Below the pieces are notes generated by a model, which saw only the letters and a list, made by a program, of their open reading frames with translations, ran no database searches and was not told the origin of the DNA. From NCBI GenBank assembly GCA_937944175.1, contig CALDZW010000043.1:1-42224 (forward strand): DNA of 42,224 bases. Reading direction: 5' to 3'. The translations under genes were made by a program, and so were the position numbers. Origin of the DNA: an uncultured Candidatus Altimarinota bacterium (GTDB lineage: Bacteria > Patescibacteriota > Gracilibacteria > BD1-5 > UBA6164). Positions 10,365 through 38,414 of this stretch are shown piece by piece (position 1 is the first letter of the stretch; each line of letters begins with the position of its first letter).

Positions 10365-11636
10365 ATGTCAACAAAATTTAAAGAAACAGTAGAGCAGCTC
10401 AAGGAGCTTGTATATAAATGAGATAATATACCTAAAATATGTGACTTAACAATTTTGGCAGCTGTTTTGTGAGAGGCATCTGATATACATTTAGAACCAT
10501 TAAGCTCATACGTTAGACTAAGATATAGAAGGGATTGAGATTTGTCAGAAATTTTAGAATATCAGACATTTTTACATCAATGAGTAGTAGCAAGGTTTAA
10601 AATTATGGCTGATCTTAAAATTGATGAATCAAGAATTCCTCAAGACTGAAGAATCTCAAAGACTATATGATGAAAGCCTCTTGATCTCAGGGTTTCTAGT
10701 CTTCCAACTGTTCATGGTGAAAAGATAGTTATGAGAATTGTAGATAAATCAAAAGAAATACCAAAATTAGAGAAATTGTGAATTGAGTGAAAGAATAGTA
10801 AAATTATCAAACATGCAATTTCACTTCCTAATGGAATTATTCTGACTTCATGACCAACATGATCTTGAAAATCAACAACGCTGTATTCTTCTCTTATTAT
10901 GCTTAATAAGCCAGGTGTTAATATAATGACACTTGAAGATCCTGTTGAAAACCAGGTTGATGGGATTAATCAATCGCAGGTGAAGCCAGATATTGGATAT
11001 ACATTTGCATACTGAATCAGAACAGCACTGAGGCAAGATCCAGATATCATTATGGTATGAGAGATGAGAGACAAGGAAACAGTTGATATTGCTATTGAAG
11101 CATCTCTTACTGGTCACTTGGTTTTTTCTACAATTCATACCAATAGTGCTGCTGAAACTATTACAAGAATACTTAATATGTGAGTTCAACCTTTTTTACT
11201 TCCAGCATCAGTCAATGCAATAATTGCCCAAAGACTTATAAAGAGGCTCTGTCCATATTGTAAAAAAGCACTTGATATGAAGGATATTTGAAAGGAGACG
11301 CTTATTAATATTAAAAAAGCTTTAAGTATAACTCCTAAGGAAGAATTATCATTAAGAGTTTGAGCAAAGTTAAAGAATCCAACTTTTTATTGACCAGTTT
11401 GATGTGAAAAATGTGACGATTCTTGATATAAGGGGAGAGTATGATTATACGAAGTACTTGAGATTACAGCATGAGTTAAGGATATGATCCTTTCAGGACA
11501 ATCAGCTTTTAATATTAATAGACAAGCAATTAAAGATGGAATGATATCATTAGAACAAGATTGAATTATGAAGAGTCTTAATTGAGAAACAAGTCTTGAG
11601 GAAGTGTACAGAGTTGCTAAAACTCAAAATGAATAA
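10365..11636 (+). CDS. pilB: Type IV pilus assembly ATPase (GspE/PilB family, short form)
   Basis: Walker A GPTGSGKSTT at 10851-10880, with three Gly encoded by TGA. Asp box, Walker B (PDIIMVGEMRD), His box ([12 protein letters not shown]) and tetracysteine CPYC...CEKC. Stop is TAA at 11634-11636. 423 aa. Confidence 0.9.
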
Positions 11637-11684
11637 AAGAATACAGGTTATTAAGGGAAGTCAAATTATTTATAATAATATATT

Positions 11685-12788
11685 ATGGAAACTGGATCTA
11701 AAGACAAAAGCCCAATTGATAAATTAAATGATTTAATTGTTTCAATGCAGCATGTTGATGTAAAGGACAAGCTTATTTTTTATCGTTTGTTAGCTACAAT
11801 GACAAATGCATGAATGAGTCTAGTAAAGTCAATTGCTGTTTTGGAAGCTCAAGAAAAAAATGCAGTATTGAAGAAGATTTTGGGAGTATTTATAAAAGAA
11901 CTTCAGGCTTGAAAGAATCTTTCTGAATGTCTTGAAATGTATCCACAATCTTTCTCTGAAGCTGAAGTGTGAGTTATAAGTTCTTGAGAAAAAACCTGAA
12001 AACTTAATACCGTCCTTCTAGATTTAGCTAACCAGATTGAAAAAATGGCATCTATATCATGAAAGTTAAAATCAGCTATGATTTACCCAGCGTTTATAAT
12101 TATAGTAGTTATAGGAGTTATTGCAGTAATGATGATTATGGTTGTACCAAAGCTTCTTGATATATTTAGTGATAAATCCGCGTTGCCAGCCTCAACTCAA
12201 ATGCTTATTTGAGTTTCAGACTTTCTGAGAGCCTACTGGTTAGGAGTATTGATTTTTTTGTTTATTGCATATGTTTGAATCAAAATATGGAAAAAAACTC
12301 CATGATGAAAATATTTATATGACTTATTCTTATTTAAGGTTCCTATTTTTTGATCAATGATGCAGAAGTTAGTACTTTCACAGTTTTCTAGACTATTATC
12401 ATGACTTATATGATCAGGTGTATCAATTGTATGAGCATTTCAGATTGTAGCAGATGGTGTATGAAATGAGGTATATAGACAAAGAATTCTCTTATTAAAA
12501 GAAGATGTACAACAATGAATTAAGATATGGGAAGCTCTTGATGGAGATAAACTATTTCCTCCTATGATGGTTCAGATGATACAAGTATGAGAGCAAACAG
12601 CTAAGGTTGATCAGACTATTTTAAAAGTAGCAGACTTCTATGATGAGCAAGTTGATAATATGATTACTACATTGAATAAGCTTCTGGAACCAATGATTAT
12701 TGTGTTTTTGGCTGTAGTTGTTTGATGAATAGCAATGGCGATTATGCAACCAATAATGAACTTGGCAGATACAGTAAGTAATTGATAA
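11685..12788 (+). CDS. pilC: Type IV pilus inner-membrane platform protein (GspF/PilC family)
   Basis: ATG at 11685. Two GspF repeats (FYRLLATMTNAGMSLVKSI... and FSRLLSGLIGSGVSIVGAF...). C-terminal LEPMIIVFLAVVVGGIAMAIMQPI. Stop is TAA at 12786-12788. 367 aa. Confidence 0.9.
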
Positions 12789-16100: not shown

Positions 16101-16652
16101 AAAGGACAACTAGGTAGTCTAGCTGTTTCAGTTGTTGCTCCTGCTAGTACTGATCTTGAAGGTGAAAGCTCAAATGATCCAATTACTCCAATGGTTACAG
16201 TTCCTGCTGTAATAGGTGAAACAGTTACTATTGTTCCTGCTATAGTTACAGTTGCTGTTGGTGATACTCTTGGAAATAACGACAAATATGCTACTATTGA
16301 CTTTACAGTTGATAAAGGTAATAATGAATTTGATAATGATGATATTGTTATTACTCAAATTGCTATTGAAAATGCTATTGCTGCTCCTTGAATTATTGTA
16401 AGAAATGATGATAATGTTACTGTTGTTAACAATGACACAACAACTACATTACTTCTTAATGATGCTACTGCTAGTGATTACGAAATTAACAATGGAGATT
16501 CATTTGAATTCAAAGTTGGTGAACCTACTACAGCTGGAGGTAACACAGAATTGAGAATCCTTGCTAATGGTGTTTCATATACTCTAGACAATAATACATA
16601 TACAACTAATAATGATGACATCATTAATTTAGGTGAATATGATGATAACTAG
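13155..16652 (+). CDS. Large acidic cell-surface protein with N-terminal SLH-like repeats (S-layer protein candidate)
   Basis: ATG at 13155, TAG at 16650-16652, 1165 aa. All five standard-code fragments in the track (13290, 14445, 14673, 15624, 16191) share this frame. Signal peptide MSNLVKKVTSAMLTSAVVLSAVSSVAGVNA. SLH-like PFADIANTDWACKYAVAALNSGFIAPNTNYRPNDQVSKIEGLKMVM. Pro/Thr linkers flank an Asp-rich block, followed by a long Asp/Thr/Val/Asn-rich region. Confidence 0.75.
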
Positions 16653-16781: not shown

Positions 16782-17807
16782 CTATTTGATATCTATGATT
16801 TCTATGTCAAAATAGAGTTTTTCTCATGCTAATTCATGATTTAAATCAATGATGATTTCTTCTTCTTGTACTTCTTTTATAGTAAAATATCAATATTGAG
16901 TAGGAAGCTTTTCTCATACTTCTAGCTTAATTCAAGCTTCAACAAATGATTGGAGATCCCTCTTTTGCATTGTTTTAGTTTTTTCAACATCATACTCACC
17001 ATATCAGTTCTTTGGTTCAACTTCTAATTTGAAAGCTTCTCATATTTTTTTTCCAACAACTCATTGCTCCCATCATTTGATAACCTGTCATTGACCTATG
17101 ACAAAACTAAATGGTTCTCATCTATTATGACTAGAATCTTTAATACTTCAGTCTTCTAGAGTAAGTGTATAATGAACACTTATAGTATTTCATTCACTAC
17201 TTGTCATGTTCTCCTTTTCTAACTGACTATCAGCTTGTTTTTTATTATATTTCTCAATTATAGCTTTGTTATCTTGTTTGTATTTTTCAAGAGATCAATT
17301 TTTATATTCTTTAATCTTTATTTCAATGATTTTTATTTCTTTTTTTGGTCTATCTTGAGAATCTGTTTTTGCTTTGGCTATTTTATCAACATTGTCTTGT
17401 CACTCTACTACTTCTCAGAACACAGAATGTTTATCATCAAGGTAATTATTGTCATTTTGGTTAATAAAGAACTGACTTCAATTTGTATTTGGTCATGAAT
17501 TAGCCATAGAGAGAGTATATTTATTGTTCCTACACTCAGGATGGAATTCATCTGTAAATTTCTCTCAGTAGATACTTTCACCTCACATTCATGTTCCTGT
17601 AGGATCTCATCATTGGATCATAAAGTTATTAATGATTCTGTGAAAAATAATATCATTATAATATCATTTTTTTGCTAATCCTATAAAATTGGCTGTGGTG
17701 AATGGTGCTTGTTCAGTGAATAGAAGTACCTTTATACTACCATTAGTTGTTTTAATTTTTGCAATAATGTTTCATTCTTGCAATTCTTTTTTATCTTTTT
17801 TCCCCAT
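16782..17807 (-). CDS. Dual-domain peptidyl-prolyl isomerase: N-terminal cyclophilin fused to a C-terminal SlyD-like FKBP
   Basis: ATG is the reverse complement of 17805-17807. Cyclophilin motifs [27 protein letters not shown] and MANSGPNTNGSQFFI. A Lys-rich linker follows. FKBP part: VHYTLTLEDG...FVIGQGQVIKGWEQG...NHELAGEKLYFDIEIIDIK. I checked every in-frame triplet from 17805 to 16785 and found no TAA/TAG. Stop is TAG at 16782-16784. 341 aa. Confidence 0.8.
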
Positions 17808-17837
17808 AATGTATAATTGTTTGTTGTTAATTAAAGA

Positions 17838-17861
17838 AAAGTCTTCCATATGGAAGACTTT
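17838..17861 (-). terminator. Terminator after the FKBP lipoprotein gene
   Basis: Perfect palindrome AAAGTCTTCCATATGGAAGACTTT, followed on the minus strand by TTTTCTTT. Confidence 0.6.
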
Positions 17862-17893: not shown

Positions 17894-18679
17894 TTACTTA
17901 ATATCCATAATTTCAATATCAAAAGTTAGTTTTTTCCCAGCAAGTTCATGATTTACATCAACAAGAACTCCTGTAGCAGTTGCTTCTTTAATTTTGAATT
18001 TACCAAATTGAGTTGGAAGTAATTGACCTGGTTCTAATTTAATTCCAGCATCTTCAAATTGTTTTAATTCTGCTTTAGGAACCATCTGTACTCTAGTAGC
18101 ATCATATTCACCATAAGCATCGGCAGGTTCAACTTCTAATTTTTTCTTATCTCAAATTTTCATACCAATAAGTCATTCATCCCATCCTTTAATTACTTGA
18201 CCTTGACCAATAGCAAATTCAAATGGTTGTCCTCTATCAAGTGAAGATTCAACTTTCTCACCATTATCTAGACTTAAAGTGTAATGAACAGCAACAGTAT
18301 TACCAGTCTGGATTGGGTAATTTGATTTATCTGCTGGGACAACAGGAGCAGGAATTGCTGGTTGTTGAGCTGCTAGTTGAGCTGCTGGTTGAGCTGCTGG
18401 TTGAGCTGGTTGTTGAGCTGCTGGTTGAGCTGGTTGTTGAGCTGCTGGTTGAGCTGGTTGTTGAGCTGGTTGTTGAGCTGGTTGTTGAGCTGGTTGTTGA
18501 GCTGGTTGTTGAGCTGCTGGTTGAGCTGCTGGTTGAGCTGCTGGTTGAGCTGCTGGTTGAGCTGCTGGTTGAGCTGCTGGTTGAGCTGCTGGTGTTTCAG
18601 TAGTAGTATTTGTTGCATTTTGGTTACAACTAGCAAGCACTAGTAAAGCAACAAGCATCATAATTTTTTTCATATTCAT
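17894..18679 (-). CDS. FKBP-type (SlyD-like) peptidyl-prolyl isomerase lipoprotein with a Pro/Ala/Gln repeat linker
   Basis: Track fragments 17894-18085 and 18173-18679 share a frame and join through TGA codons. The joining triplets were checked. Lipobox MNMKKIMMLVALLVLASC. (AAQP)/(AQQP) repeats. FKBP core VHYTLSLDNG...FAIGQGQVIKGWDEG...NHELAGKKLTFDIEIMDIK. Stop is TAA at 17894-17896. 261 aa. Confidence 0.85.
18357..18593. repeat. 12-bp tandem repeat, about 19.5 copies, two unit types
   Basis: The units GCTGCTGGTTGA and GCTGGTTGTTGA, plus one GCTGCTAGTTGA variant, were counted directly. They lie in-frame within the lipoprotein linker (AAQP / AQQP). Confidence 0.95.
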
Positions 18680-23509: not shown

Positions 23510-24085
23510 ATGGAAACTTTTTTAAAAAAAGAGATTAAAGCTTGAAAGTTTGAGCTAATAATTGATACTCAAATTTTCTCAAAAGATATTATATTGAAAT
23601 CAGCATTTGTTTACTTGGATCAATGATATTTCTTCTTCAAATATGATAAAGAAAATATTATTTTACAGTTTACTCAAAAAGATTGAGTAGATGTAAGTCC
23701 AGAGATAATTATATGAGAGTTTTCTGATACATTATTAGAGATGACTCTAAGAGATAAACTAGAAAAAGATAATAAAACTATTAGAGAAGCAATAGTTGAA
23801 AAGGCAATTAATGGGCCTTTAGATCAACAAAATTTTGTTACGCTAGATACAGATGCTTGAGAGCAGGTATGAAAACAAACTGAACAAAATCAAATAGATT
23901 TTGACAAAGATATTGATGAAATTCTTAAAGAAATAGAAAATGATCCAGAGCTTCAAATTGATGAGGCAGAAATTGAAAAAATTCTTAAGGAAATAGAAGA
24001 GGAAACAGAGACAGAAGTACAAAAACCAAAATTATCTGCTAATTTGGATGGATTAAAAAAGGCAAAAAATCAGTTTAAAAAATAG
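23510..24085 (+). CDS. hxsD: HxsD-like protein with an acidic repeat-containing C-terminal extension
   Basis: The frame was checked codon by codon. ATG at 23510, TAG at 24083-24085, 191 aa. The N-terminal domain (FSKDIILKSAFVYLDQGYFFF...FSDTLLEMTLRDKLEKDNKTIREAIVEKAI) matches my memory of the HxsD signature LLNDYxLRE. The tail contains the duplicated EILKEIEND / KILKEIEEE. Confidence 0.5.
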
Positions 24086-24116: not shown

Positions 24117-24302
24117 ATGAAAAAAGATTTCACAGTAGATTTTTGAATATATAATGAAGAAATATTGAAACAAGCTATTTCAGATTTTTCAGAAGTTGGA
24201 GAAATTGAGCTAAGAAAAAATGTTATCACTATTTCTGGAGAAATAGATAGTGAAATTGAAGAAATTTTTAATGAACTTATGAATTATATCCTCAGTCTAT
24301 AA
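24117..24302 (+). CDS. Small HxsD-N-terminal-like protein (61 aa)
   Basis: ATG at 24117, TAA at 24300-24302. It shares a pattern with the preceding gene (YNEEILKQAISDFSEVGEIE...IFNELMNYILSL) and stops at the position of the LLxxxxLR motif. Confidence 0.4.
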
Positions 24303-24311: not shown

Positions 24312-25766
24312 ATGCTAGATTTAGAAAAAATTCAAAATACCAATACTACTAAAATAGGGTTTTTTAGGTTTAAAAAATTTGATGACAATCAGTATTTGCT
24401 TACAAATGATGCTTGAAAATTCATATTCCTAAGCAATGCAGATTTTGAAATATTTGTAAGTTGAGAAAGTCTTGAGGCTCTTGCTGATTATGGTGATTTA
24501 ATAAAAAAAGGATTCATAAAAAATGATGATTATCAAGCAAAAATGACTTGATCAGTTGCTTTAAAAAATCACTTTGTCTGAGTGTGACCAACTCTTCATA
24601 TGATTGTTACTACGCTTAGATGTAATCATAAATGTAAATATTGTCATGCAGCAGTTGCTCCAATGACAGCAACAGAGTTTGATATGTCAAAAGAAACAGC
24701 AAAAAAAGTAGTTGATACCATTTTCTTTACTAGCTCACCAAGTTTAACTATTGAATTTCAGTGAGGTGAGTCACTTGTGAACTATGAAGTGGTTCAGTAC
24801 ATTACAGAGTATGCAAAAGCAAAAGCACAACATCTCAAGAAAAATCTTCAATTAAATTTAGTGACAAATCTTACATTAATGACTGAAGAAAAGCTCACTT
24901 GGTTACTTGATAATTGAGTTGATATATGTACTAGTCTTGATGGAGATGAGATCACTCATAATAATAATAGGTCTGGATATCAAGACTGAAATTCATTTGA
25001 AACAGTTACTTACTGGCTAAAAAGGGTTAGTGAAGAAAAACAAAAAAGAAATATGTGAAAAATATGAGCACTTTTGACTGTGACAAAAGAAACTATCCCA
25101 AAATTTAAAGAAATTATTGATCAATATGTTGGTTTATGACTTGACTGAATTTTTCTTCGTTGGTTAAATCCATATGGCTTTGCAGCAACTCAAAAAGAAG
25201 ATCTTGCATATGATTCAGATGAATGGATTAAATTTTATAAAAACTCACTTGATTACATTATAGAATTAAATAAAAAATGAACAGTATTTAGAGAACACAT
25301 TACATGAATATATTTAATGAAGATTTTTAACTGAAAAGATCCAGCGTTTATGGACATTAGAAGTCCAAGCTGAATTGCTGTTGGTTGAGTGGCTTATAAT
25401 TATGATGGCAATATATATGCCAGTGATGAATCAAGAATGTTGTGAAGAATGTGAGATGATAGTTTTCTTATGTGTGAAGCTTGAGAGGATGGTAAAGAAA
25501 ATTATAAGAATATGATCAATTCTGATATTACTAAGATTGCAGTTCAATCAAGTACACTAGATTGACTTCCAGGTTATAATGATCATGTGTATAAAACCTA
25601 TCTATGAGTGGATATAATACACAACTATAAAACAGCAGGATCATTGTATAATCCAATTCAAAAAGATGAAAAGATGCAAATGCAGATAGCTATTCTTGAT
25701 TATATTTTTGAGAAACTGCAAGATCCAGAAGATGAAAAAATATTAATGAGTTGGATTTGAAAGTAG
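24312..25766 (+). CDS. hxsB: Radical SAM enzyme, HxsB-like peptide maturase with N-terminal RRE-like domain
   Basis: All 484 codons were checked with no TAA/TAG. CNHKCKYC cluster motif at about residue 105 and a FQGGESL glycine-rich motif. The ~95-aa N-terminal domain (YLLTNDAGKFIFLSNADFEIFVSG...LIKKGFI) looks like a peptide-recognition element. The C-terminus has a SPASM-like spacing but lacks the cysteines. Stop is TAG at 25764-25766. Confidence 0.7.
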
Positions 25767-25826: not shown

Positions 25827-26219
25827 ATGAGTGATAAAAAGAAGAAAATTTTTCCAAAGATTAAGAAAAAATTAAAGTCTTTCTTGACAGACGAAAGTGG
25901 GAAAATCACGAAAAAGGATGCTTTGGGGTTGAGTGCAGCAGGTCTTTTGCTGACTTGAGCTAATGACGCAAGTGCTGCAGTGACAACTTGGACAGTCCCT
26001 GCAGGGTTGCCTTTTCCAAACCCAGCAGATCCAAATAACCATAATAATTCAGTTGCTCCTACATATATGACTGTATCATGACCAGCTACCTGCTCACATG
26101 CAAGTGGGATAGTTAACTGACATTATAGTGCTGTTCCCAATGTTAACCAAACTCAAACACAATATGAACTTCATGGTCATGGAAGTCATGGAAGTCATGG
26201 AAGTCATGGGCAATGGTAA
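25827..26219 (+). CDS. hxsA: His-Xaa-Ser repeat peptide (HxsA-like putative precursor/substrate), 130 aa
   Basis: ATG at 25827, TAA at 26217-26219. Lys-rich N-terminus, a hydrophobic segment ALGLSAAGLLLTGA, then NDASAA (AXA-like). The C-terminal half contains SHASG, GHYSA and ends in HGHGSHGSHGSHGQW. Confidence 0.65.
26172..26210 (+). repeat. 9-bp in-frame tandem repeat encoding (His-Gly-Ser)3
   Basis: The unit CATGGAAGT occurs three times, perfectly, at 26178-26204. It is flanked by the degenerate copies CATGGT and CATGGG. Confidence 0.95.
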
Positions 26220-29156: not shown

Positions 29157-30270
29157 ACATAATATATGAATCATTGATGTTTTTAACCTTTTAAAAGTAT
29201 TAAAAGGTATTTTTCTGACTACATGAAAGACTGTAGATAAATTTGAAAGAAAATTATCTTTATATACTTGAAATAAATATTCAATCTGAATGAAATCATG
29301 TACAATAGCACTTTTTTTATCATTAAAGTACTTTAATATCTGAAAATGAGATGAGGTTATTACTACTCCATTATCATTTGTTTCTACAGCAAACTCTATT
29401 GAACATACATGAGCAAAACCAGTTTTTGTTGATGTTGATAAAAAAACATGAAATATTGATCTTAAGAAGATTGAATGAAAAATTACATCTAAAACTAAGG
29501 CAATAATAGTAGTACATCTATATTGACAAATGGTTGATATTGTTAAACTAAAATGAATAACTGATAAATACAACATAAAAATTATTGAAGACTCAGCACA
29601 CTGTGTTGAGTGAGAAAACAATTGAATCAGACCATGAAATATATCAAACTGTGCATGCTTTTCATTTTCGACAATAAAGAATATAACAAGTTGAGAATGA
29701 GGAGCAATAAGTACGAATGATAAAAGTATGAGTGACTGGCTTAAAAAGGCTAGATTACACTGAATTTCTAAATCAGCAGCTCAAAGGTATGGACTTACTT
29801 ATGAACATTATGATATGGAATTTTTATGATATAAGTCAAATATGACAAATATTGATGCATCATTATTATTAAATCAAATTGATAATATTGATAAACTTTT
29901 ATTAAAAAGAGAAAGGATATCTCAAAAGTATAATGATTGATTCAAAAATAATGAAAATATAGGTTACCCAGATGTATTACTAAATTGAGTACATGCAAGA
30001 CATTTATATACTATATTGATAAAAGATTCTTGATTAAGAGACACATATATATATAAGCTTCAGAAAGCATGAATATGAGTTGCAGTTAACTTTAGAACTA
30101 TTCATCTGATGTCTTATTATAAAAAGAAGTATAGTTATAAAAGAGGGGATTTTCCTAATGCTGAATTTTATTGAGATGCTACTATATCTATTCCCCTTTA
30201 CCCAAAATTAAGAAACAGTGAAATAAACTATATTATTAAAATAATAAATAGTATTAATTATGCAACATAA
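29137..30270 (+). CDS. DegT/DnrJ/EryC1/StrS-family PLP-dependent sugar aminotransferase
   Basis: The only plausible start is GTG at 29137 (the frame opens after TAG at 29107), overlapping rfbB by 20 nt. Motifs: TTGKTVDKFERKLSLYTG, EVITTPLSFVSTANSI, IEDSAHCVEG, and the Lys motif FSFSTIKNITSGEGGAI. Stop is TAA at 30268-30270. Confidence 0.8.
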
Positions 30271-31189
30271 AAGTGTGTTTTTAGAATTAACAGATAACTG
30301 CAACCTTTCCTGTGAGTATTGTAATAAACATTATGGTTTTGAATACATTGATTTGGCATTATTTGAAAATGTTGTGAGACAGGTTGCTGTCAATAAAAAG
30401 ATACTTGTAAGAATGCTATGTCTATGGTGATGAGAGCCATTCTTACACCCAAAAATATGAGATATATTCCAAATTTTAAAAACATTTTTTCAAAATTATG
30501 TAGGAAGTTTTGACATCATTATTAATACAAACTGACTTTTATTAAGAAAAAATAGGGATTTGTTAGACAGCTTGGTAGAAGAGCTAGCAAATATAAACTT
30601 TATAGTTTATGTCTCTTTAGATGGAATATGAAAGGAAGGAAATATTAACCGAGCTATTACAAATAAGCAATATTACTGAATTGTTGATTCTGTCAAATAT
30701 CTGAAAAATAAAAAATTAGAAAATTTAACTGTGAAGGTAAGCTCAGTTTTATCTTTTAAGAACTCTCCATTATCTCAGCTAAGATCTTTTGTTTCTTACT
30801 TTGACTCATTAGGTGTTGATATCAATTTTTGTTTTCAAGAGTTTGTTTCTTGAAAAGAAAAAAAAATAAAAAAAGATGAACTTAAATTGCTATTGAAGAA
30901 ATACATTTTTTTGAAGAAGAAGAAAATTGACGTGTATTTAGAATCAAAAAATGAGTTTAATGATAATTATAGAATCAATGTTAAAGGAGTTGTTAATAAA
31001 CATATTGATGGTAGTTTTGATTGATCTGATAAATTTATTATATCTAAAGAATGAGACATTAAGAATATTGAAAATGAAACAAGTATAGATATAACAAATG
31101 ATGAGATATGGTGAATAATGTATGCTAAAAAAGATTATATTAAATTGATAAGCATTATATATAATTCAACTTATAAAGACACGGGATAG
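30260..31189 (+). CDS. Radical SAM enzyme (309 aa, no C-terminal Cys cluster)
   Basis: The ATG at 30260 overlaps the aminotransferase gene by 11 nt. All codons were checked. CNLSCEYC at residues 14-21, then WGGEPFLHP and SLDG. Stop is TAG at 31187-31189. Confidence 0.8.
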
Positions 31190-31378
31190 GTTGAGTTACA
31201 CATAATGACATTTCTATAAAGAATGCCAGGACATTCTTCTTGCATTACTCTAATTGTAATAAAACAACTTATTGAGAGGAGTATATGTAAGGATTAGTGT
31301 ATGAAACGATTATAGAGTGGACAATTAATGATAAAATAATATAATTTTTTCAATTATATTATATCAAAAAGTAAAATT

Positions 31379-32794
31379 ATGAAAGGGTTCTCAATACAAC
31401 ATACTAAAATGCTCTTATTCTTGATTAACTTTTTTGATGGTATTGGCTTAGCTTTTAATTACCCATGGTACATATTTTATAACCAAAATTATAGTAGTTC
31501 AGAGGTGAACTCTTTTTGGGAGAGGCATAATCAAACTAATCACCCAACTCAATTATATTTACACACGCTGTTTTGTGAAACCAAGTGTCATTACTGTAAT
31601 TGTATATCTTATGTTGATAATGATCAAGGGAACTTTGTCAAATATAAATATTTCTTATTTCAAGAGATAGATAATTATAGTAAGATTATTACTAAAGATT
31701 TAGATACTCTTTATTTTTGATGAGGAACCTTCTCACTTTGGAATGAACAAGATATGGAAGAGATATTAATAAAAATTAAGAAAAGTTTTAATTTTAAGAA
31801 GAATTACACCTGGATGGTTGAACTACACCCTGAGTCAACTAATAGAAAGAAACTTGAAATATTGAAGAAGTATTGAGTCACAAATGTCATGATAGGGTTA
31901 CAGTCTCTTAACAAAAAAGTGAGTGAAAAGAATAATCGACCATATAATGAATGAAAAATTATTGAAGTAATTGATGACATTGTTGATCTGAGGTTTAATA
32001 AAGTATGCTTTGATATAATGTATAATTTGCCTTATGAAACCTATGAAGATTTAGAAGAGAATCTCTGTAACTTAAAAAAAATAGGTGAAAGAATATCTTG
32101 AAAAATTAATATGAATCTTGAGATAAATAAATGGAATATGTCATATAATGTCCCATTTTACAAGATATGAATTAATGATAATTTTTCTAAACTACAGGAC
32201 TTCTTAGAGGACTTTTTTAGATTGCTAGACAGAAAGACAGCATTGATAAAGTCATTTAAAGAAAAATCACTAAATAGTTTATTTGGTCATAATAGAGAAG
32301 AGATTGATTCAAGAAAAAAGAATAATTCTGCCATATTAGGGATTGGCTATTGAGCAATATCTTATGTCCCCTGAATTGCTACATATAGTTTTGATTTTTC
32401 ATATAAGAAGATTAAAAGTTTTTATGGAAATACGAAGTTTAAATGACATAATCTTTCAGAGCAAGATAACATAAACTTTTCTTTTTTAAATAATATAAGG
32501 TCTTGATTTGATCCTGTAATTATGCAATCAGCACTTTCATCTATTTCTCAAGAAGCATTGAGACATTTTAAAAAAATACAAAAAAGTCTTAAATTATCTA
32601 GTGATTGAAAAATAACAGCACAACTTGAAAATGATTTACTCCTTCATCAAATGTCTCTTTGTTTTTATTCATATTCAAAAAGAAAGGATGTTATGAAGTG
32701 ACTGGTTAAAAAGTGGTTTTCTTTAGGTAATAGTGTAGAAGACCTTGAAGATAATATTGATAATTATTTAGAATTATATTATAAGAAAGATTAG
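31379..32794 (+). CDS. HemN-like radical SAM enzyme (coproporphyrinogen III oxidase-like / class C methyltransferase-like), 471 aa
   Basis: All codons were checked. LYLHTLFCETKCHYCNC (the HemN-type CxxxCxxCxC), then YFGGGTFS and VMIGLQSLN. Long C-terminal domain. Stop is TAG at 32792-32794. Confidence 0.75.
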
Positions 32795-32849
32795 ATATGC
32801 TTTTTATGTAGGGCTCAGAGTATGTTTATATATGTAATATATAGAGATT

Positions 32850-33758
32850 ATGAAACGATTAGAATTTCACATAACATATTCTTGTAATCATGCTTGCATA
32901 TTTTGTAGTGAGGATGATAGGATGATGGAATACTCAAAAAATCCTCTAACTGAGATCCAAGTTCGTTCAATACTTGTTGATAGAGCAAAAAAGTGATATA
33001 ATCATGTTAACTTTACTTGAGGAGAACCAACACTCTTCCCAAACTTCTTAAAGCTTTTGAGTTTTACTAAAAAGATTGGTTATAAAATTTATGTATGAAC
33101 AAATGGCACCTCATTTGTATCTAAATCCTTCTCAAAAGAAGCTTTAAAATATATTGACGAGCTATCTTTATCAATTCATTGGTTTAATCAAATTAGCTGT
33201 AAAGCTCAAACAGGGCACAAAAAACATTTTGACCTTTTTAAGATTATTGCAAAGAATATTAAAACTTATAACCAGAAGAATTTTTTCTTCTCTAATGTTG
33301 TAATAAATAAATCTAATTATATGGATACACTAAAGATTATTAAATTTGTTAAAGAATCTGATTATCCAGTAGCACAAGTACTTATCTCAAATATAGCACC
33401 TGAATGATTGGCTGACCATAATTTTAAAGACCTAGCATTCTCTCTTGATGATTTTAAATTAGATATACCTGATATAGTAACATATACATCTCAGAATAAT
33501 ATTATCTTGAGGTTCTTTGGTCTTCCAACATGTATTCTTTGAAGGGATTATGAAGATTACTCTAATGATGGTCATTGGCAAGAAAGGCACACAATAGAAA
33601 GATATACAAATGATCGTGGTAATATTGTTCTTAAAGATACTTACAGTCCTGATAATTCACGTAAGAGGACTTTTGTGAGAAAGTGTCAGACTTGTGAGTG
33701 GAGATTGAATCCCTGTACTTGAGTATTTAAAAAATATTTAGATTTCTATGAATTTTAG
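32850..33758 (+). CDS. Radical SAM enzyme with a C-terminal 4-Cys (twitch / partial SPASM-like) motif, 302 aa
   Basis: CNHACIFC at residues 12-19 and FTGGEPTLFP. C-terminal GLPTCILG ... CQTCEWRLNPCTGVF. Stop is TAG at 33756-33758. Confidence 0.8.
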
Positions 33759-33825
33759 ATTAATAATTTATCTATTACATAGAGATTACTATTGCTAATA
33801 AGATACTCAAATAGTTTAATTTTTC

Positions 33826-34755
33826 ATGAAAATAATGGAACTTATCTTTATACTTACATACGAATGTAACTTTCGTTGTACCTACTGTGATATTGACAAA
33901 AGAGATGAAAGTATATCTCAAAAACTATTACAAGATTCAATTGTTTTTTTGGAGAAAAATAATTTTCCGATTAAAAAGGTGAAATTTTTTTGAGGAGAAC
34001 CACTATTAAAAAAGGATTATATTAAATACATTATAGCTAACTTCCCTAAAAGTTATAATCCAGACTTTTACATTACATCAAATTCAACTTTGATTGAAGA
34101 TCAATTTATTGCTTTTATTGAGGACAATAATGTTAAATTGACATTTAGTTTAGATGGTGATATTGAAACTACATCAGTGAATAGATTACTTCAAAACTGA
34201 AAAAATCTCTCACAGGAAATCATAAAAAACTCAGAGAAATATTCAAATCTGATAAGAGTAAATCAAGTTATCACTTCAAAGAATGCAAAGGATTTTTTTA
34301 AGAATTTCTTGTTTATATATAATTTATGAGTTACTAGGTTTAACTTTCTTCCAGAATATTATGCAGAATGGTCAAAAGAGGGGTTGGGGAATTTAAAAAG
34401 ATGATTTCATGAAATAAAAAGATTTTATAATGAAGGGAATAGATTTGAGCTTATAAATCTTGAAAATTACTCAAAAGTAGCATTTTTTAATTTAGGAATA
34501 ATTATTGATACAGATTGAAAGATATATGGGACGAATCTTATTCTCTCTTGAATCTTTGAAAAATATAAGAAGGACTTAGTTATCGGAGACATTCATAATT
34601 GATTAAATTATGACATACATGATAAAGAATTTAATCTCCATTATCAGTCTAAGATAAATAGATTTATTAATAAAGAATACTCCCCAGTAATCTTAAAGTC
34701 TGTTAAGTATGTAGATTTGATATTAAATGACTTTTGTTATAAATTTCACAATTAA
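33826..34755 (+). CDS. Radical SAM enzyme (309 aa, Cys-less SPASM-like tail)
   Basis: All codons were checked. CNFRCTYC at residues 14-21, then FFGGEPLL and SLDG. The C-terminal IIIDTDGKIYGTNL resembles the SPASM beta-hairpin but has no Cys. Stop is TAA at 34753-34755. Confidence 0.8.
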
Positions 34756-34838
34756 ATAAACCAGGAGAATAAAGATTATGAGAATATCCTTCATAACTGT
34801 TTAGCTACAGAATATCTTATTAATCATAGTATCTTAAC

Positions 34839-36119
34839 ATGGAAAATAAAAAAAAGTTAATATTGAAAGAGGCAACTCAGAAAGAAAATCGTATATGGGT
34901 AAGAATTGCATCTGCTTGTAATAACATATGTATTTTTTGCCTTGATAGTGATGCTCAGAATTGAACCTTCCCTGAAGAAGAGAAAATTAAACATGAAATT
35001 AGAGTATGATATATAAAGGGATATGAGAATAGAATTATTATATCTTGATGAGAAGCTAGTATTAATCCTAAATTCTCAAATTATATAGCATATGCTAAGG
35101 AGGTCTGATATAATAAGATTCAAACTGTTACAAATTGAAATATGTTTTTTTCAGAAGAATTTTGTAAAAAAGTTTTTAAAGCATGATTAGAGGAGGTAAC
35201 TTTCTCGTTTCATGGTCATAACTCTACTCTTCATGATTACTTAGTAGCAACTCCATGAGCATTTAAGAAATCTCTCAAGGGATTGATTTATGTTAAGAAA
35301 AACTTCCCAGATATAATTGTGAATATTGACATTGTGGTGAATAAGGTAAATGTAAAGTACCTTCATGATATTGTTAGTTTTTTTATGAAGTTGTGAGTGT
35401 ATGAATATGATATCTTACAAATAGTACCATTTTGAAGAGGATTTTCAAAATATAAAAAACAACTTTTCTATAATATAGAAGATTATTCACAAGAATTGAC
35501 AAATACATGGAAACTGAGCACAATTAATTGAATGTATATGTGGACAAACAGGTTCCCAGCTGAGGCATTTGAATGATATGAAGATTTGATTCAAGATCCT
35601 AGGAAAGTTAAATGAGAGGTTATGTGAGAATGAATCAATATGTTTTCTAAGTTTATAAAAACTAAGTGATTATCTAAGCCAAATTGTTTTTGAGATGCTT
35701 GCAATGTTTGCTTCATTAAACAATATTGTCATAATTTTATAAATAATGTAAATAGGCCTAGTCTTAATTACAACAAAGATAATACCTTCATTCTGAGATG
35801 AGAAGAGTTTCCAAGTGAGGTATATAAAAAATATTGAGAATCTAAAGAAAATTTTTTAGAGTTTTTGCATTGAAAAAAGATGAAAAATATTAAATTAATC
35901 AATGTTCCAAAGTGTTTATGATGAGAATGACTTTTTGAGAAGTACAATGATTTAAATCCTGAGTATGAAATAAATGATTATACTAAAAAGTACATTAAGA
36001 ATTTATATAGAAAAAAATCTTTAAGATGTAATAAATGCAGATATAATGAAACGTGTGAGTGAATTTGAATTAATTTTATAAGAAGTTATTGATTCAATAT
36101 TTTAAAACCAATTATTTAA
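34839..36119 (+). CDS. Radical SAM enzyme with two C-terminal Cys clusters (SPASM-like), 426 aa
   Basis: All codons were checked. CNNICIFC, ISGGEASINP and FSFHGHNSTLHD. Auxiliary motifs CFGDACNVCFIKQYC and VPKCLGG...CNKCRYNETCEGI. Stop is TAA at 36117-36119. Confidence 0.8.
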
Positions 36120-36121
36120 AT

Positions 36122-37066
36122 ATGGCTAATATATGATACATTCAAGTAAATAGACATTGCAACAATGCATGCCATTTTTGTAGTAATCCAAGCAATTGAA
36201 ATAACATTTCTTATGAGAGATGATTAGAATTAATTGATGATTTCATTGAAAAGAAATATCTTGGTATCATCTTTACTTGATGAGAGCCGACATTATCATC
36301 AGATTTAGCTGAATGGATAGAATATGCTAATAAAAAAGGAATAGAGAATAGAATGATATCTAATGGAATGATGTGCTCTAGTAAAGATTATATCAGTAAG
36401 TTATCTAAATCTTGATTGAAATTGATTCATTTTTCTGTGTATTCTTGCTATGAGAAGATTCATGATTTTCTAACGGATACTCCTTGATCTTGGAAGAAGC
36501 TTATGATGAGTATCACTAATGCTCTGAATGCTTGAATAAGAGTGCAAATCAATACAGTTATAAACCATTATAGTGAAAATCATTTAGATGAAACAGTAAG
36601 GTTTATTACTAGGACTTTCCCTCCAATTAAACATTTTGTATGGAACAACTTAGACCCTTTAATGATGAGGAAAACAAAAACTGCAATTTCTACATTGCCA
36701 AATTTTAGAATTTTTAAGGATCCATTAGCTAGAGCAATGAAATTTTTAGAAGCGTCATGAAGAACATTTAGAGTTGAAAGAGTCCCCTTATGTTATATAG
36801 AATGATTTGAGTGGGCATCAACTGAAACAAGAAAAATTGTTAAGGATGAGGAAAGAATTGTTCACTTTTTGGATGAAAGAGAAACTGTGAGACAATATTG
36901 AAAATATTGGGAGCATGACAAAAATAAGGATTGTAAGCAATGTAGCCTTAATAGTATTTGTGCTTGAATTTACAAAAAAGACGATTATTTCAGTAATGTA
37001 AATGTTTACCCTCAAAAGCTTTCTCAAGAGAGGAAAAATATAATTATAAAAAAAATTTTAAAATAG
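36122..37066 (+). CDS. Radical SAM enzyme with a C-terminal 4-Cys (twitch / partial SPASM-like) motif, 314 aa
   Basis: The ATG lies 2 nt after the previous stop. CNNACHFC, FTGGEPTLS and HFSVYSCYEKIHD. C-terminal VPLCYIEG ... CKQCSLNSICAGIY. Stop is TAG at 37064-37066. Confidence 0.8.
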
Positions 37067-38414
37067 ATTGTAAAGTTAAAAGTTTTACTATAAGTAGATT
37101 ACTGCTTATTATGGTAATGATGAATCCTGAAATTATGTATGATCAATAAGGAGATGTTGATAAGAGCTTTATTTGATTTTTTGCTTTGAAATTGGGCGTA
37201 TTTTTTTTTTGAATTCTGGTTATTAAGAGGTGTGCTTGTTTTAGATTCAATACTTCATCTTTTGTTAATGAGTTAGACACTCAAAATATATACTCATTCT
37301 TTATCTTTTCAGTGAGATCTTCTTCATGTCAAAGAATTGAGATAAGATCTTTTTTATCTATATAGTCACCTTCTTCAAGGTCAATAATATTCTTATAATA
37401 ACATTCTCAAATCCCAAAGGTTATTTTGTAACTATAGATTATTATTTTTATAAACACATATATTCATAAATACAATGTAAAGATTCTGAATAATAATGCA
37501 CTCATTTCATAAAAGTGATTGATGAGTTGATAACTTACAAAACTCATAAGCACTATTATAAGTATTCATAATAATATATCTGAAACACGTGCAGGATCTA
37601 TGCTATATGTTTGAGAAATATATTTTTTTATTCTCATAGTAATTGTACGGCATATATAGAGTGATCAGATAAATACTCAAATTAGTAACAATACTAAATA
37701 TATATTATATTTCTGAATAATATCTGAAAACATATTGAGAGTCTGAGTGTTTTCTAGTATAGAATTGAAAAGGTATATTCGAGCTAGTCGTATACTTACA
37801 AAAATGATAAGAAAAATAATAATGAATGTTATTATGATTCTACATGTGTTTCATCACTTGTTTTGTTTGTAAACATTCCATGTGTCAGTGACATCAGTGC
37901 GAACATTAGTGAACAGACTGTTTCTATATTGAGAATTGAAAAGAATTTTCCCAAACCAAAACCAAAAAAAATATCCTAACAAATAAGCAATAGTAACAAG
38001 TGCTATATTACCAATAAAAGGAATCACACCAATATAAGGAATAAATAAACTCAATACCAATAAATACTTAGCATCTCAAGCAGCCCATATTCAAAAATAA
38101 TATAATGCAAAGCTTACAACAAGAGTTAATAAGATTTGAATTGAGAAAAAGAGAGGATTAATGTCAGAAAGTCCTGGAAGATATTCTGGAGCTATTCACA
38201 AAAATAAAATCCCCCACCAAAAAGGAATGAGCATCAATAAAAGCCCTAAATATTTATTAGGGATTTTTTTAGTTTTAATATCTGAAACTACTATCTTGTA
38301 GTTGAAATATAAGAATGGAATAAGAAGAATGTATGTGAAAACTTCCAAGAATACAGTTGTTAGTATAATATAATTTATATACAAGCATTGTAGAAGTATA
38401 GATCTTTTTTGCAA
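37044..38414 (-). CDS. A24-family (prepilin peptidase-like) aspartic membrane peptidase with a large internal insertion, 456 aa
   Basis: Track fragments 38196-38414 and 37854-38060 share a frame. I checked every triplet down to TAA (reverse complement of 37044-37046). First Asp motif VVSDIKTKKIPN, second AAGDAKYLLVL, C-terminal PFGP-like STSPYGSYIISGF. The start is TTG (38412-38414) or a nearby ATT. Confidence 0.65.

What the first reader, a model, noticed from the sequence alone, without database searches (positions are those of the whole stretch)
25827..26219. Putative substrate peptide: signal-peptide-like N-terminus and a C-terminal HGHG(SHG)3QW tail built from a perfect 9-bp repeat
The 130-aa product begins with a Lys-rich stretch (MSDKKKKIFPKIKKKLK). 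A hydrophobic segment follows (ALGLSAAGLLLTGA), then an AXA-like site (NDASA-A), so it looks Sec-exported. The mature part is Asn/Pro/Thr/His-rich with a single Cys. It has dispersed His-Xaa-Ser triplets (HAS in CSHASG, HYS in NGHYSA) and ends in three identical HGS units.

The three units are encoded by identical CATGGAAGT codon triplets (26178-26204). That identity suggests recent slippage or selection for copy number.

An rSAM-modified yet signal-peptide-bearing substrate is unusual, because modification must precede export. The terminal His-Gly-Ser array is an obvious candidate for crosslinking, epimerisation, methylation or metal binding.
Basis: partly seen in the sequence, partly recalled or inferred. 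Interest (0 to 1): 0.8.

Follow-up and report, generated by a model that had tools for sequence, protein, structure and literature searches.

The report
Divergent HxsA-like peptide of Gracilibacteria
This small gene encodes a probably exported, histidine-rich peptide that is very likely the target of radical-SAM enzymes of the known His-Xaa-Ser (HXS) system, here in an undescribed variant found almost only in TGA-recoded Gracilibacteria.

Summary
Read with code 25 (TGA = Gly), 25827-26219 encodes the 130-aa peptide as described, and it ends in three identical CATGGAAGT units.

It is a real, conserved gene. It has over 100 close homologues and matches 533 clusters in a profile search. Nearly all genome hits are Gracilibacteria/Patescibacteria.

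In about 27 of 35 loci it follows HxsD, a 61-aa HxsD-like ORF, and HxsB. HxsD and HxsB pass NCBIfam cut-offs. The peptide does not: it only touches HxsA3 and HxsA4 below threshold.

What is new is the variant:
- A 30-residue, highly conserved, Lys-rich motif sits in front of the hydrophobic segment.
- The mature part is uncharged and has a conserved HxSG(I/V)VNGH(Y/F)S core.
- The (HGS)n tail varies from about 2 to 11 units, and by 2 units between two otherwise identical proteins.
- HxsB has lost its auxiliary-cluster cysteines.
- No canonical HxsC is present; instead there is a battery of HxsC-like rSAMs.

Function (antiphage, or something else) is inferred, not shown. Verdict: new variant of a known kind, moderate interest.

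The parts
23510..24085 (+). HxsD (191 aa, with an acidic C-terminal extension)
   Evidence: TIGR03976 scores 51.3 bits against a cut-off of 50. Orthologues at 50-69% identity occur in 27 of 35 related loci, always upstream of HxsB.
24117..24302 (+). 61-aa HxsD-like small protein
   Evidence: It was found only when small ORFs were called with TGA as a sense codon. NF038315 HxsD_rel scores 37.7 bits (cut-off 41); the L005 counterpart scores 64.5. It is present between HxsD and HxsB in 27 of 35 loci.
24312..25766 (+). HxsB radical-SAM maturase lacking the auxiliary-cluster cysteines
   Evidence: TIGR03978 scores 482.9 bits (cut-off 370), full length. It is 33-36% identical to annotated hxsB genes over 96% of its length. 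CxxxCxxC is invariant, but the four C-terminal Cys of canonical HxsB are replaced in all 27 Gracilibacteria sequences. The closest solved structure is CteB, 5WGG.
25827..26219 (+). HxsA-like precursor/effector peptide (130 aa, code 25)
   Evidence: There are 103 homologues and 533 clusters by profile search. 42 of 43 family members touch HxsA3 below threshold.
25827..25922 (+). Residues 1-32: Lys-rich conserved n-region / leader motif FPKxKKxLKxFLTDESGKITKKDA
   Evidence: This is the most conserved part of the family. P10, K14, F19, E23, I27 and K29 are invariant. It aligns to positions 2-31 of the HxsA3 model. AF2 predicts a helix at 9-23, at low confidence.
25923..25976 (+). Residues 33-50: hydrophobic h-region plus c-region ending A-S-A; predicted signal-peptidase I site after A50
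   Evidence: The family has a 14-residue uncharged stretch with mean hydropathy about 1.9. A50 is >=90% conserved and is often followed by [A/G]-H. No formal signal-peptide predictor was available.
26091..26129 (+). Residues 89-101: core motif CSHASGIVNGHYS, holding two H-x-S triplets at fixed spacing
   Evidence: H91, S93, V96, N97 and H99 are >=90% conserved. The motif is present in most of the 103 homologues.
26172..26216 (+). Residues 116-130: tail HGHGSHGSHGSHGQW
   Evidence: H121, S123, H124 and H127 are conserved. It aligns to the end of the HxsA4 model. The terminal Trp is a true TGG codon.
26178..26204 (+). Perfect 3 x CATGGAAGT repeat
   Evidence: Copy number and repeat unit vary between lineages.
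32850..33758 (+). HxsC-like rSAM (302 aa)
   Evidence: Its best NCBIfam hit is HxsC, 79 bits against a cut-off of 268. It has a C-terminal CxxCx6C. It is 36% identical to L005 5099-6034 and collinear with it.
34839..36119 (+). HxsC4-like rSAM (426 aa)
   Evidence: HxsC4 NF038332 scores 132 bits (cut-off 500) and HxsC scores 83 bits. It is 36% identical to L005 5955-7157.
36089..37066 (+). HxsC-like rSAM (325 aa)
   Evidence: HxsC scores 105.8 bits against a cut-off of 268. It has a C-terminal CxxCx5C. It is 43% identical to L005 7161-8111 and 71% identical to its L009 orthologue.
30260..32794 (+). Two further rSAM genes (309 aa; HemN-like 471 aa). Belonging to the system is probable, not shown.
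   Evidence: Similar genes follow the peptide in several loci.
33826..34755 (+). PapB/HxsB-like rSAM (309 aa) without a C-terminal Cys motif
   Evidence: Relatives occur in 21 of 35 loci.
37044..38414 (-). A24 (GxGD) prepilin-peptidase-like membrane protein; a possible but not obligate processing protease
   Evidence: Pfam A24 scores 26.0 bits against a cut-off of 26.5. Both catalytic Asp motifs are conserved. Clear orthologues occur in 5 of 35 loci, next to the peptide gene in L001 and L004 and convergent with the HxsC-like rSAM in L009 and L020.

Best explanation
The ORF is the HxsA-equivalent of a Gracilibacteria-specific variant of the His-Xaa-Ser radical-SAM maturation system. That is, it is both the substrate and the eventual effector.

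Proposed course:
1. The precursor is made in the cytoplasm.
2. Its conserved Lys-rich N-terminal motif (residues about 8-32) serves as the recognition leader for HxsB and the two HxsD-type proteins (inferred).
3. HxsB and one or more of the HxsC-like rSAMs encoded downstream covalently modify His/Ser-containing motifs. The candidates are the conserved core H91-A-S...H99-Y-S and/or the (HGS)n tail (inferred by homology with E. coli HXS, where an H-x-S motif gains +8 Da).
4. The short hydrophobic segment plus the conserved A-x-A then directs Sec export. Signal peptidase I cuts after A50, removing leader and signal together (inferred from sequence features).
5. The product is a mature peptide of about 80 residues, uncharged and rich in His, Asn, Pro and Thr, located at the cell surface.

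Its role there is most likely an envelope-level one like that of HXS (blocking phage DNA entry). This last step is the weakest.

The HGS array expands and contracts by replication slippage, under selection for the H-G-S peptide unit.
For: Shown:
- The gene is real and conserved: 103 homologues and 533 clusters by profile search.
- Both Ser codon families are used in HGS units (AGT 79, TCN 55), which shows selection at the protein level.
- The order HxsD - HxsD-like - HxsB - peptide is fixed in about 27 of 35 loci.
- HxsB scores 483 bits (cut-off 370) and HxsD scores 51.3 bits (cut-off 50).
- 42 of 43 family members hit the HxsA3 model and 12 hit HxsA4.
- The short homologue P0103 bridges to HxsA4 (49.6 bits), HxsA3 (36.8) and HxsA (25.9).
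- Conservation peaks in the n-region, at A50, in the core H-x-S motifs and in the tail.
- HGS copy number varies: L010 has 5 units and P0014 has 3, at 100% identity upstream. Repeat units are lineage-specific.
- HxsC-like rSAMs with a CxxCx5-6C motif accompany the cassette.

From the literature:
- Canonical HxsA carries a signal peptide. It needs HxsB, HxsC and HxsD for N-terminal processing and for a +8 Da modification in an H-x-S motif. It acts in the periplasm (PMC13128918).

Also consistent:
- CteB, a leader-binding peptide maturase, is the closest solved relative of HxsB.
Against: - The peptide is below every HxsA-type cut-off: HxsA gives no hit, HxsA3 scores 24.4 against 65, and HxsA4 scores 12.2 against 55.
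- No rSAM in the window reaches the HxsC cut-off.
- HxsB lacks the auxiliary-cluster cysteines, whose mutation abolished antiphage activity in E. coli. The chemistry may therefore differ.
- There is no PG-binding domain.
- The mature part has no basic residues. The published electrostatic DNA-binding model therefore does not transfer directly.
- Gracilibacteria may lack a periplasm (my own knowledge).
- No signal-peptide predictor could be run, and the 30-residue n-region is atypical for Sec signals.
- There are no expression, proteomic or MS data.
Confidence: 0.72

Rival explanations
1. It is the same Hxs-type modified, exported peptide, but its role is not antiphage. The neutral (HGS)n tail and conserved His residues bind metal ions (Ni, Zn or Cu), or mediate contact with the host cell of these episymbiotic bacteria.
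For: - X in H-x-S is Gly rather than Arg, and the mature part has 0 Lys/Arg and 8 His. Family medians are 2 K+R and 9 His.
- There is no PG-binding domain.
- The cassette sits among housekeeping genes, not in an evident defence island.
- PADLOC gives no defence-specific hit, although PADLOC v2 predates HXS.
- One family member weakly hits the cuproprotein CopI.
Against: - The only experimentally characterised Hxs system is antiphage.
- There are no metal-transport or metal-regulatory genes nearby.
- His-rich tails alone do not explain the need for several rSAM enzymes.
Confidence: 0.2
2. The N-terminus is a class III (prepilin-like) signal. The co-located A24/GxGD intramembrane protease cuts after the conserved KKDALG (G34), before the hydrophobic segment. 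This leaves a membrane-anchored or filament-forming modified protein.
For: - An A24-like protein with both catalytic Asp motifs lies in the cluster.
- Orthologues lie next to the peptide gene in L001 (two copies) and L004. In L005 an A24-like gene overlaps the peptide's stop codon.
- Once TGA is decoded as Gly, G34 is conserved in most members and is preceded by basic residues.
- In E. coli, N-terminal cleavage of HxsA is non-canonical.
Against: - Clear A24-like orthologues occur in only 5 of 35 loci within +/-10 kb.
- G34 is replaced by R, S or V in some members.
- The hydrophobic stretch is only about 14 residues, and there is no Glu at +5.
- A conserved A-x-A site follows the hydrophobic stretch, as in Sec signals.
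- In L005 the A24 gene precedes true pilin genes.
Confidence: 0.07
3. It is an ordinary secreted His-rich protein that merely sits next to the rSAM genes and is not modified by them.
For: - The peptide fails all HxsA-type cut-offs.
- No modification data exist.
Against: - Its position directly after HxsB is fixed across loci whose HxsB is 53-76% identical to the window's.
- It shares N- and C-terminal homology with HxsA3 and HxsA4.
- The H-x-S motifs are conserved.
- No other candidate substrate lies in the cassette.
Confidence: 0.04
4. It is a spurious ORF, or an artefact of reading through TGA.
For: Under table 11 the frame is broken by three TGA codons. A 113-aa antisense ORF overlaps it.
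Against: - TGA = Gly is established for the whole window.
- There are hundreds of homologues with conserved motifs and synonymous variation.
Confidence: 0.01

Closest known systems
HXS antiphage system with HxsA (TIGR03979). Predicted by Haft and Basu 2011 (ref. 10 in PMC9062424) and characterised by Li et al. 2026 (PMC13128918). Example here: Aeromonas salmonicida plasmid 4, hxsD-B-C-A (L036).
   Same: - HxsB and HxsD are family members above cut-off.
- The substrate has a signal-like N-terminus and tandem H-x-S repeats.
- The logic is cytoplasmic rSAM maturation followed by export.
   Different: - Gene order is D-D'-B-A, not D-B-C-A.
- There is an extra HxsD-like protein.
- No HxsC is above cut-off. 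Instead there are 3 HxsC-like and 3 other rSAMs further downstream.
- HxsB lacks the four auxiliary-cluster Cys.
- The effector is 130 aa against about 190-214, has no PG-binding domain, has H-G-S rather than H-R/S-S repeats, and has no basic residues.
- The conserved recognition-like motif lies before, not after, the hydrophobic segment.
- The host is a CPR bacterium using code 25; 99.7% of published HXS systems are in Pseudomonadota.
NCBIfam HxsA3 (NF038309) and HxsA4 (NF038313), with HxsD_rel (NF038315) and HxsC4 (NF038332)
   Same: - The N-terminal motif aligns to HxsA3 positions 2-31, and the tail aligns to the end of HxsA4.
- 42 of 43 relatives hit HxsA3.
- The 61-aa ORF matches HxsD_rel.
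- One rSAM has HxsC4 as its best hit.
   Different: - All scores are below the curated cut-offs (24.4/65, 12.2/55, 37.7/41, 132/500).
- The window's family is longer and adds the conserved central motif CxHxSG(I/V)VNGH(Y/F)S, which is absent from the short L005 form.
Small HxsA-type peptides next to canonical hxsB/hxsC (for example the 90-aa Methylobacter protein in L037)
   Same: They are small, have a signal peptide, and end in a C-terminal H-x-S run and an aromatic residue (HYSHRSHSSHSSHSSHVSSRY).
   Different: They have an ordinary short n-region, basic repeats, canonical HxsC, and an HxsB that keeps its auxiliary Cys.
Leader-dependent rSAM/SPASM peptide maturases such as CteB/SCIFF (PDB 5WGG)
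   Same: CteB is the closest solved relative of HxsB (67.8 bits). In both cases a leader that is more conserved than the core suggests leader-guided modification.
   Different: The Gracilibacteria HxsB has no SPASM or twitch Cys. The substrate has only one Cys, so thioether chemistry is unlikely. The leader is embedded in an export signal.
Type IV prepilin / archaeal class III signal peptides cleaved by A24 peptidases
   Same: There is a basic leader ending in a mostly conserved Gly just before a hydrophobic stretch, and an A24-like protease lies in the cluster.
   Different: The hydrophobic stretch is short, there is no Glu at +5, an A-x-A site follows it, and the protease is present in only a minority of loci.

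Membership tests
HxsA sensu stricto (TIGR03979) | HMM score at or above the curated cut-off of 121.65 bits | tested here: not met
   There is no hit even at E <= 10. Only 1 of 43 relatives hits it, and weakly.
HxsA sensu stricto (TIGR03979) | Tandem His-Xaa-Ser repeats | tested here: met
   There are 5 H-x-S triplets, three of them in tandem. They are enriched over shuffles (P = 1.4e-4).
HxsA sensu stricto (TIGR03979) | Peptidoglycan-binding domain (Li et al. 2026) | tested here: not met
   No Pfam domain is detected. The protein is too short, and AF2 shows no folded domain.
HxsA sensu stricto (TIGR03979) | N-terminal signal peptide | tested here: inconclusive
   The h-region of about 14 residues and the conserved A-x-A fit a signal peptide. 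The n-region is about 30 residues, which is atypical. SignalP was not available.
HxsA3 (NF038309) | HMM score at or above 65 bits | tested here: not met
   The score is 24.4 bits, and only residues 9-38 align.
HxsA4 (NF038313) | HMM score at or above 55 bits | tested here: not met
   The score is 12.2 bits, and only the tail 116-130 aligns. The relative P0103 scores 49.6.
HXS system (HxsA/B/C/D) | HxsB present | tested here: met
   TIGR03978 scores 482.9 bits against a cut-off of 370.
HXS system (HxsA/B/C/D) | HxsD present | tested here: met
   TIGR03976 scores 51.3 bits against a cut-off of 50, which is borderline.
HXS system (HxsA/B/C/D) | HxsC present, adjacent to HxsB | tested here: not met
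   No rSAM reaches 267.9 bits; the best is 105.8 at 36089-37066, about 10 kb away. The HxsC N-terminal domain is missing.
HXS system (HxsA/B/C/D) | Second [4Fe-4S] cluster Cys motif in HxsB | tested here: not met
   The positions of C422, C425, C431 and C455 of Aeromonas HxsB are Y, H, L and M in the window. None of the four is Cys in any of the 27 Gracilibacteria sequences.
HXS system (HxsA/B/C/D) | Gene order hxsD-B-C-A | tested here: not met
   The order is D - D-like - B - A.
HXS system (HxsA/B/C/D) | Protection against phage by blocking DNA entry; +8 Da modification | not testable with these tools
   This needs experiments.
Leader-dependent rSAM RiPP precursor | Leader more conserved than core; maturase adjacent | tested here: met
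   The invariant columns lie in residues 10-29. HxsB is immediately upstream.
Leader-dependent rSAM RiPP precursor | Leader bound by a recognition element in the maturase | not tested
   The only indication is sequence similarity of HxsB residues 52-249 to CteB.
Class III (prepilin-type) signal peptide | Invariant Gly at -1, a hydrophobic helix of about 20 residues, and a dedicated A24 peptidase | tested here: not met
   The Gly is not invariant, the hydrophobic stretch is about 14 residues, and clear A24-like orthologues are in 5 of 35 loci.

The most novel reading that the evidence does not exclude
The Gracilibacteria cassette is not just a diverged antiphage HXS. It would be a distinct pathway for maturing an exported peptide. 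In this reading one small precursor, guided by a leader built into the n-region of its export signal, is worked on by many rSAM enzymes. The window has seven and related loci have up to ten, counting an HxsB that has no auxiliary cluster. These would install several different modifications on H-x-S motifs. In some lineages the peptide would be released by a dedicated GxGD intramembrane protease at the N-terminus, or by self-cleaving S74 or Hint modules at the C-terminus. The product would serve the host-dependent lifestyle of these bacteria, or metal handling, rather than blocking phage DNA.
Probability: 0.2. Interest if true: 0.75.

Novelty: new variant of a known kind. Interest (0 to 1): 0.5.

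Why it matters
- **Reach of the system.** HXS was only recently shown to be an antiphage system built around an rSAM-matured protein effector, and it was reported as almost confined to Pseudomonadota. This finding shows a large, unnamed sister family (over 500 sequence clusters) in code-25 Gracilibacteria. Standard annotation misses it because TGA recoding breaks the ORF and the peptide falls below every HxsA-type model cut-off.
- **A natural experiment.** The variant drops or changes several parts that are essential in E. coli: adjacent canonical HxsC, the HxsB auxiliary cluster, the PG-binding domain and the basic repeats. It keeps HxsB, HxsD and the H-x-S motifs. This points to what the minimal chemistry needs. 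It also gives a small, soluble-looking substrate with a clearly defined leader, which could help the in vitro reconstitution that the E. coli study could not achieve.
- **Annotation.** RiPP and defence mining in CPR genomes needs the correct genetic code.

Tried and rejected
- tRNA scan of the window for a UGA-decoding tRNA: none found. The code was settled from motif positions instead.
- Pfam on the peptide and on the two downstream ORFs (26243, 26998): nothing useful.
- PADLOC: no Hxs models in v2, only generic viperin-type rSAM hits.
- AlphaFold2 of the peptide with a 43-sequence alignment: mean pLDDT 60, pTM 0.24. It shows two N-terminal helices and is otherwise coil. It was not good enough for a fold search, so none was run.
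It was repeated with P0001 as the first row.
- Promoter scan: hits are at chance level (32 found, 28.3 expected). There is no terminator after the peptide gene.
- A24 protease as an obligate partner: rejected, since clear orthologues are in only 5 of 35 loci.
- The genes directly downstream of the peptide (250-aa membrane protein, GT-like protein, epimerase) as conserved system parts: rejected. They have no orthologues next to the peptide elsewhere, apart from one epimerase hit and three DegT hits.
- Literature on Gracilibacteria genomes (PMC6851277, PMC11452946): no mention of the cluster.
- A second peptide paralogue in the window: none.
Full report
**1.

The stretch 25827-26219 (+) is interrupted by three TGA codons under the standard bacterial code. 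The whole window, however, reads TGA as a sense codon. Only 9 ORFs of >=100 aa exist under table 11, against 55 when TGA is read through. TGA makes up 4.7% of codons in the 13 longer genes sampled. It falls on invariant glycines such as Walker A (S@PT@S@KST) and Rossmann motifs. Code 25 (TGA = Gly) is therefore correct, and it places the organism in the Gracilibacteria/Absconditabacteria part of the CPR.

Three identical CATGGAAGT units lie at 26178-26204. TRF reports period 9, 3.8 copies and 100% identity, and no shuffle reproduces the 27-mer. H-x-S is enriched over composition: 5 observed against 0.79 expected (P = 1.4e-4). Outside the tail it is still enriched, 2 against 0.23 (P = 0.013).

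**2. It is a real gene with a large family**

A word-indexed search returned 103 homologues of 77-208 aa. A profile search of 1.84 billion representatives found 533 clusters at E <= 1e-3 and 146 at E <= 1e-10.

A scan of one genome per species found 30 loci. All are in Gracilibacteria, 'Peribacteria' or Patescibacteria assemblies, one of them the closed genome CP042461.1, and all are TGA-recoded. A single short relative (P0103, locus L005) sits in a standard-code genome of 42% GC that has secretin and Pil genes.

The family shares a fixed architecture:
- A Lys-rich n-region with the motif FPKxKKxLKxFLTDESGKITKKDALG. P10, K14, F19, E23, I27 and K29 are invariant.
- An uncharged stretch of about 14 residues.
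- An acidic c-region ending in an Ala that is >=90% conserved (A50) and often followed by [A/G]-H.
- A variable middle.
- A core motif CxHxSG(I/V)VNGH(Y/F)S, with H91, S93, V96, N97 and H99 >=90% conserved.
- A terminal (H-x-S)n run that closes with GQW, GSRW or GGWC.

Within HGS units, Ser is encoded by both AGT (79 times) and TCN (55 times). These codon families cannot interconvert by a single synonymous change, so selection acts on the peptide sequence.

**3. Context: an Hxs cassette**

The gene immediately upstream is HxsB (TIGR03978, 482.9 bits, cut-off 370). Before it lies HxsD (TIGR03976, 51.3 bits, cut-off 50). Between them I found a 61-aa ORF (24117-24302) that matches the 'HxsD-like protein' model NF038315 at 37.7 bits (cut-off 41); its L005 counterpart scores 64.5.

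The order HxsD - HxsD-like - HxsB - peptide recurs in about 27 of 35 related loci. Most exceptions are truncated contigs or second peptide copies.

The peptide itself fails every curated HxsA-type model. TIGR03979 gives no hit. HxsA3 scores 24.4 bits against 65, with residues 9-38 aligned to model positions 2-31. HxsA4 scores 12.2 bits against 55, with only the tail aligned to the model's end. Even so, 42 of 43 family members touch HxsA3 and 12 touch HxsA4. The short relative P0103 bridges to HxsA4 (49.6), HxsA3 (36.8) and HxsA (25.9). The family is thus a divergent, longer sister of the HxsA3 and HxsA4 types.

**4. What is already known**

Li et al. 2026 (PMC13128918) showed the following:
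- HxsD-B-C-A is an antiphage system that blocks phage DNA entry.
- HxsB, HxsC and HxsD are all required for a non-canonical N-terminal cleavage and for a +8 Da modification on an SHRSS motif.
- The matured protein acts in the periplasm.
- 99.7% of systems are in Pseudomonadota.

**5. How the window's system differs**

I compared it with annotated canonical loci from Aeromonas (L036) and Methylobacter (L037).
- (a) Canonical HxsB has a C-terminal CxxCx5C...C motif. The window's HxsB and all 26 Gracilibacteria orthologues keep the CxxxCxxC radical-SAM motif but replace all four of those Cys with Y, H/S, L/I and M/K and similar residues. In E. coli, mutating this second cluster reduced cleavage and abolished defence.
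- (b) No gene reaches the HxsC cut-off. Instead, three rSAMs at 32850-37066 have HxsC or HxsC4 as their best NCBIfam hit (79, 132 and 106 bits). They keep a C-terminal CxxCx5-6C but lack the roughly 110-residue N-terminal domain of HxsC. They are collinear with three orthologues (36-43% identity) next to the HxsA4-like peptide in L005.
- (c) Related loci carry 2-9 additional rSAM genes within 10 kb after the peptide. The window has seven rSAMs in all.
- (d) The effector is small and has no PG-binding domain. Its mature part has 8 His and no Lys or Arg, and X in H-x-S is Gly. The proposed electrostatic DNA-binding role of the basic E. coli repeats therefore cannot simply be carried over.
- (e) The conserved, probably recognition-related segment lies in front of the hydrophobic stretch. 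In E. coli the required segment (residues 23-47) follows the signal peptide.

**6. The N-terminus**

No signal-peptide predictor was available, so this rests on sequence features. The n-region is about 30 residues with net charge +4 to +9. The uncharged stretch is 14 residues with mean Kyte-Doolittle hydropathy of about 1.9, which is too short for a stable membrane anchor. A conserved small-x-Ala site lies around residue 50. Obvious secreted proteins of the same window have ordinary short n-regions. AF2 gives two helices (9-23 and 29-45) and coil elsewhere, at low confidence.

My reading is a Sec signal whose extended n-region doubles as the maturase-recognition leader, so that signal peptidase I removes both at once.

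The alternative is cleavage after the mostly conserved G34 by the A24/GxGD protease encoded at 37044-38414. That protein keeps both catalytic Asp motifs. Orthologues abut the peptide gene in L001 and L004. An A24-like gene also overlaps the peptide's stop codon in L005, although its similarity to the window protein is only marginal (E = 0.002). However:
- Clear orthologues occur in only 5 of 35 loci.
- G34 is not invariant.
- The hydrophobic stretch is short.
- The conserved A-x-A argues for SPase I.

I give this alternative about 7%.

**7. The repeat**

Decoded tails carry from about 2 to 11 HGS units. Many lineages have their own perfectly homogeneous 9-bp unit: CATGGAAGT x5 in L008, x7 in L024 and x6 in L032; CATGGTTCT x5 in L006; CATGGGAGT x4 in L029. 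Others are mixed, such as L016.

L010 and P0014 are 100% identical upstream of the tail but have 5 and 3 units. P0045 and P0054 (90% identical) differ by one unit. Several pairs at 92-98% identity keep the same number.

It is labile rather than hypervariable, and the H-G-S unit is under purifying selection.

**8. Most likely mechanism, and how sure each step is**

| Step | Basis | Confidence |
|---|---|---|
| Substrate/effector of an Hxs-type maturation system | Context and homology | About 0.8 |
| Leader-guided modification of H-x-S motifs by HxsB plus HxsC-like rSAMs | Inferred | About 0.6 |
| Which motif is modified | Open | - |
| Sec export with cleavage at A50 | Inferred | About 0.6 |
| Envelope-level antiphage role | By analogy only | About 0.35 |

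A metal-binding or host-interaction role is the main functional rival, at about 0.2.

**9. Verdict**

The sequence observation is confirmed. The substrate interpretation is well supported. The claimed oddity is already explained by published work. What remains of interest is that this is an undescribed, widespread CPR variant of the Hxs system with several defining features changed. I rate it a new variant of a known kind, with interest 0.5.

Noticed in passing
window 24312-25766 (HxsB): All 27 Gracilibacteria HxsB sequences (the window plus 26 orthologues) keep the CxxxCxxC motif. All have lost the four C-terminal cysteines that bind the second Fe-S cluster in canonical HxsB. Even so, the protein still scores 483 bits on the HxsB model.
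   Followed up: yes
window 24117-24302 (+): A 61-aa ORF between HxsD and HxsB is missed by any >=100-aa ORF call. It matches the NCBIfam 'HxsD-like protein' model just below cut-off and is conserved in 27 of 35 related loci.
   Followed up: yes
window 37044-38414 (-), overlapping 36089-37066 (+): A 456-aa A24/GxGD prepilin-peptidase-like membrane protein has both catalytic Asp motifs and a long C-terminal extension. It is convergent with the last HxsC-like rSAM and overlaps it by 23 nt. The same convergent arrangement is seen in L009 and L020. In L001 and L004 its orthologue lies next to the peptide gene.
   Followed up: partly
window 30260-37066; loci L008, L022, L027-L030: There is an unusual pile-up of radical-SAM genes after the peptide gene. 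The window has six more, and L022 has up to nine within 10 kb. Many are HxsC-like with a C-terminal CxxCx5-6C. The sugar-modifying genes that accompany them in the window (epimerase 28221, DegT 29137, a GT-like protein 26998) are not conserved partners.
   Followed up: partly
proteins P0187, P0161, P0166, P0152, P0173 (family members from other metagenomes): Some family members carry a self-cleaving module directly after the H-x-S tail. P0187 has a Peptidase_S74 intramolecular-chaperone domain (47 bits, above cut-off). P0161 and P0166 give sub-threshold Hint hits, and P0152 and P0173 look Hint-like only by eye. This hints that a free C-terminus right after the tail matters.
   Followed up: partly
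window 25827-26219, 13155-16652, 17894-18679: TGA makes up 62% of Gly codons in the window. It is only 23% in the peptide gene (P = 0.005), 16% in the 1165-aa surface protein (P = 1e-17) and 13% in the lipoprotein/FKBP gene (P = 1e-4). In HGS units across all loci, TGA accounts for 8 of 134 Gly codons. Secreted, probably abundant proteins seem to avoid the reassigned codon. These three genes also have the highest GC.
   Followed up: partly
L004 8182-8709; L011 (three peptide hits): Some genomes carry extra paralogues of the peptide. In L004 a 175-aa copy lies directly after HxsB and a 133-aa copy lies 1.3 kb further on. The window has only one.
   Followed up: partly
L021, L025, L033 (peptide genes): Runs of N interrupt three peptide genes in public assemblies: in or right after the HGS tail in L021 and L025, and in the middle of the gene in L033. 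The two tail cases suggest the repeat tends to break or gap assemblies. Copy numbers taken from MAGs should be checked against reads.
   Followed up: no
window 17894-18679 (-): A lipoprotein-like protein (signal ending LASC) has a long tandem (P-A-A-Q / Q-P-A-Q) repeat followed by an FKBP-type domain. That domain is closely similar to the C-terminal part of the neighbouring cyclophilin-FKBP gene 16782-17849.
   Followed up: no
window 10365-12788 and 13155-16652: PilB/GspE-like ATPase and PilC/GspF-like genes lie upstream, followed by a 1165-aa acidic, Thr/Asp/Val-rich surface protein with a normal signal peptide. There are no tRNA genes anywhere in the 42 kb.
   Followed up: no
window 25872-26213 (-): A 113-aa antisense ORF overlaps the peptide gene when TGA is read through. 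There is no evidence that it is coding. It is a by-product of the open frames that low-GC, TGA-sense DNA produces.
   Followed up: no
PMC6851277 (genome of L016's organism): The closed Gracilibacteria genome that also carries this cassette was reported to have a different hypervariable gene built from 9-mer repeats encoding Pro-Thr-Asp. Tripeptide repeats encoded by 9-bp units may be a recurring theme in these genomes.
   Followed up: no
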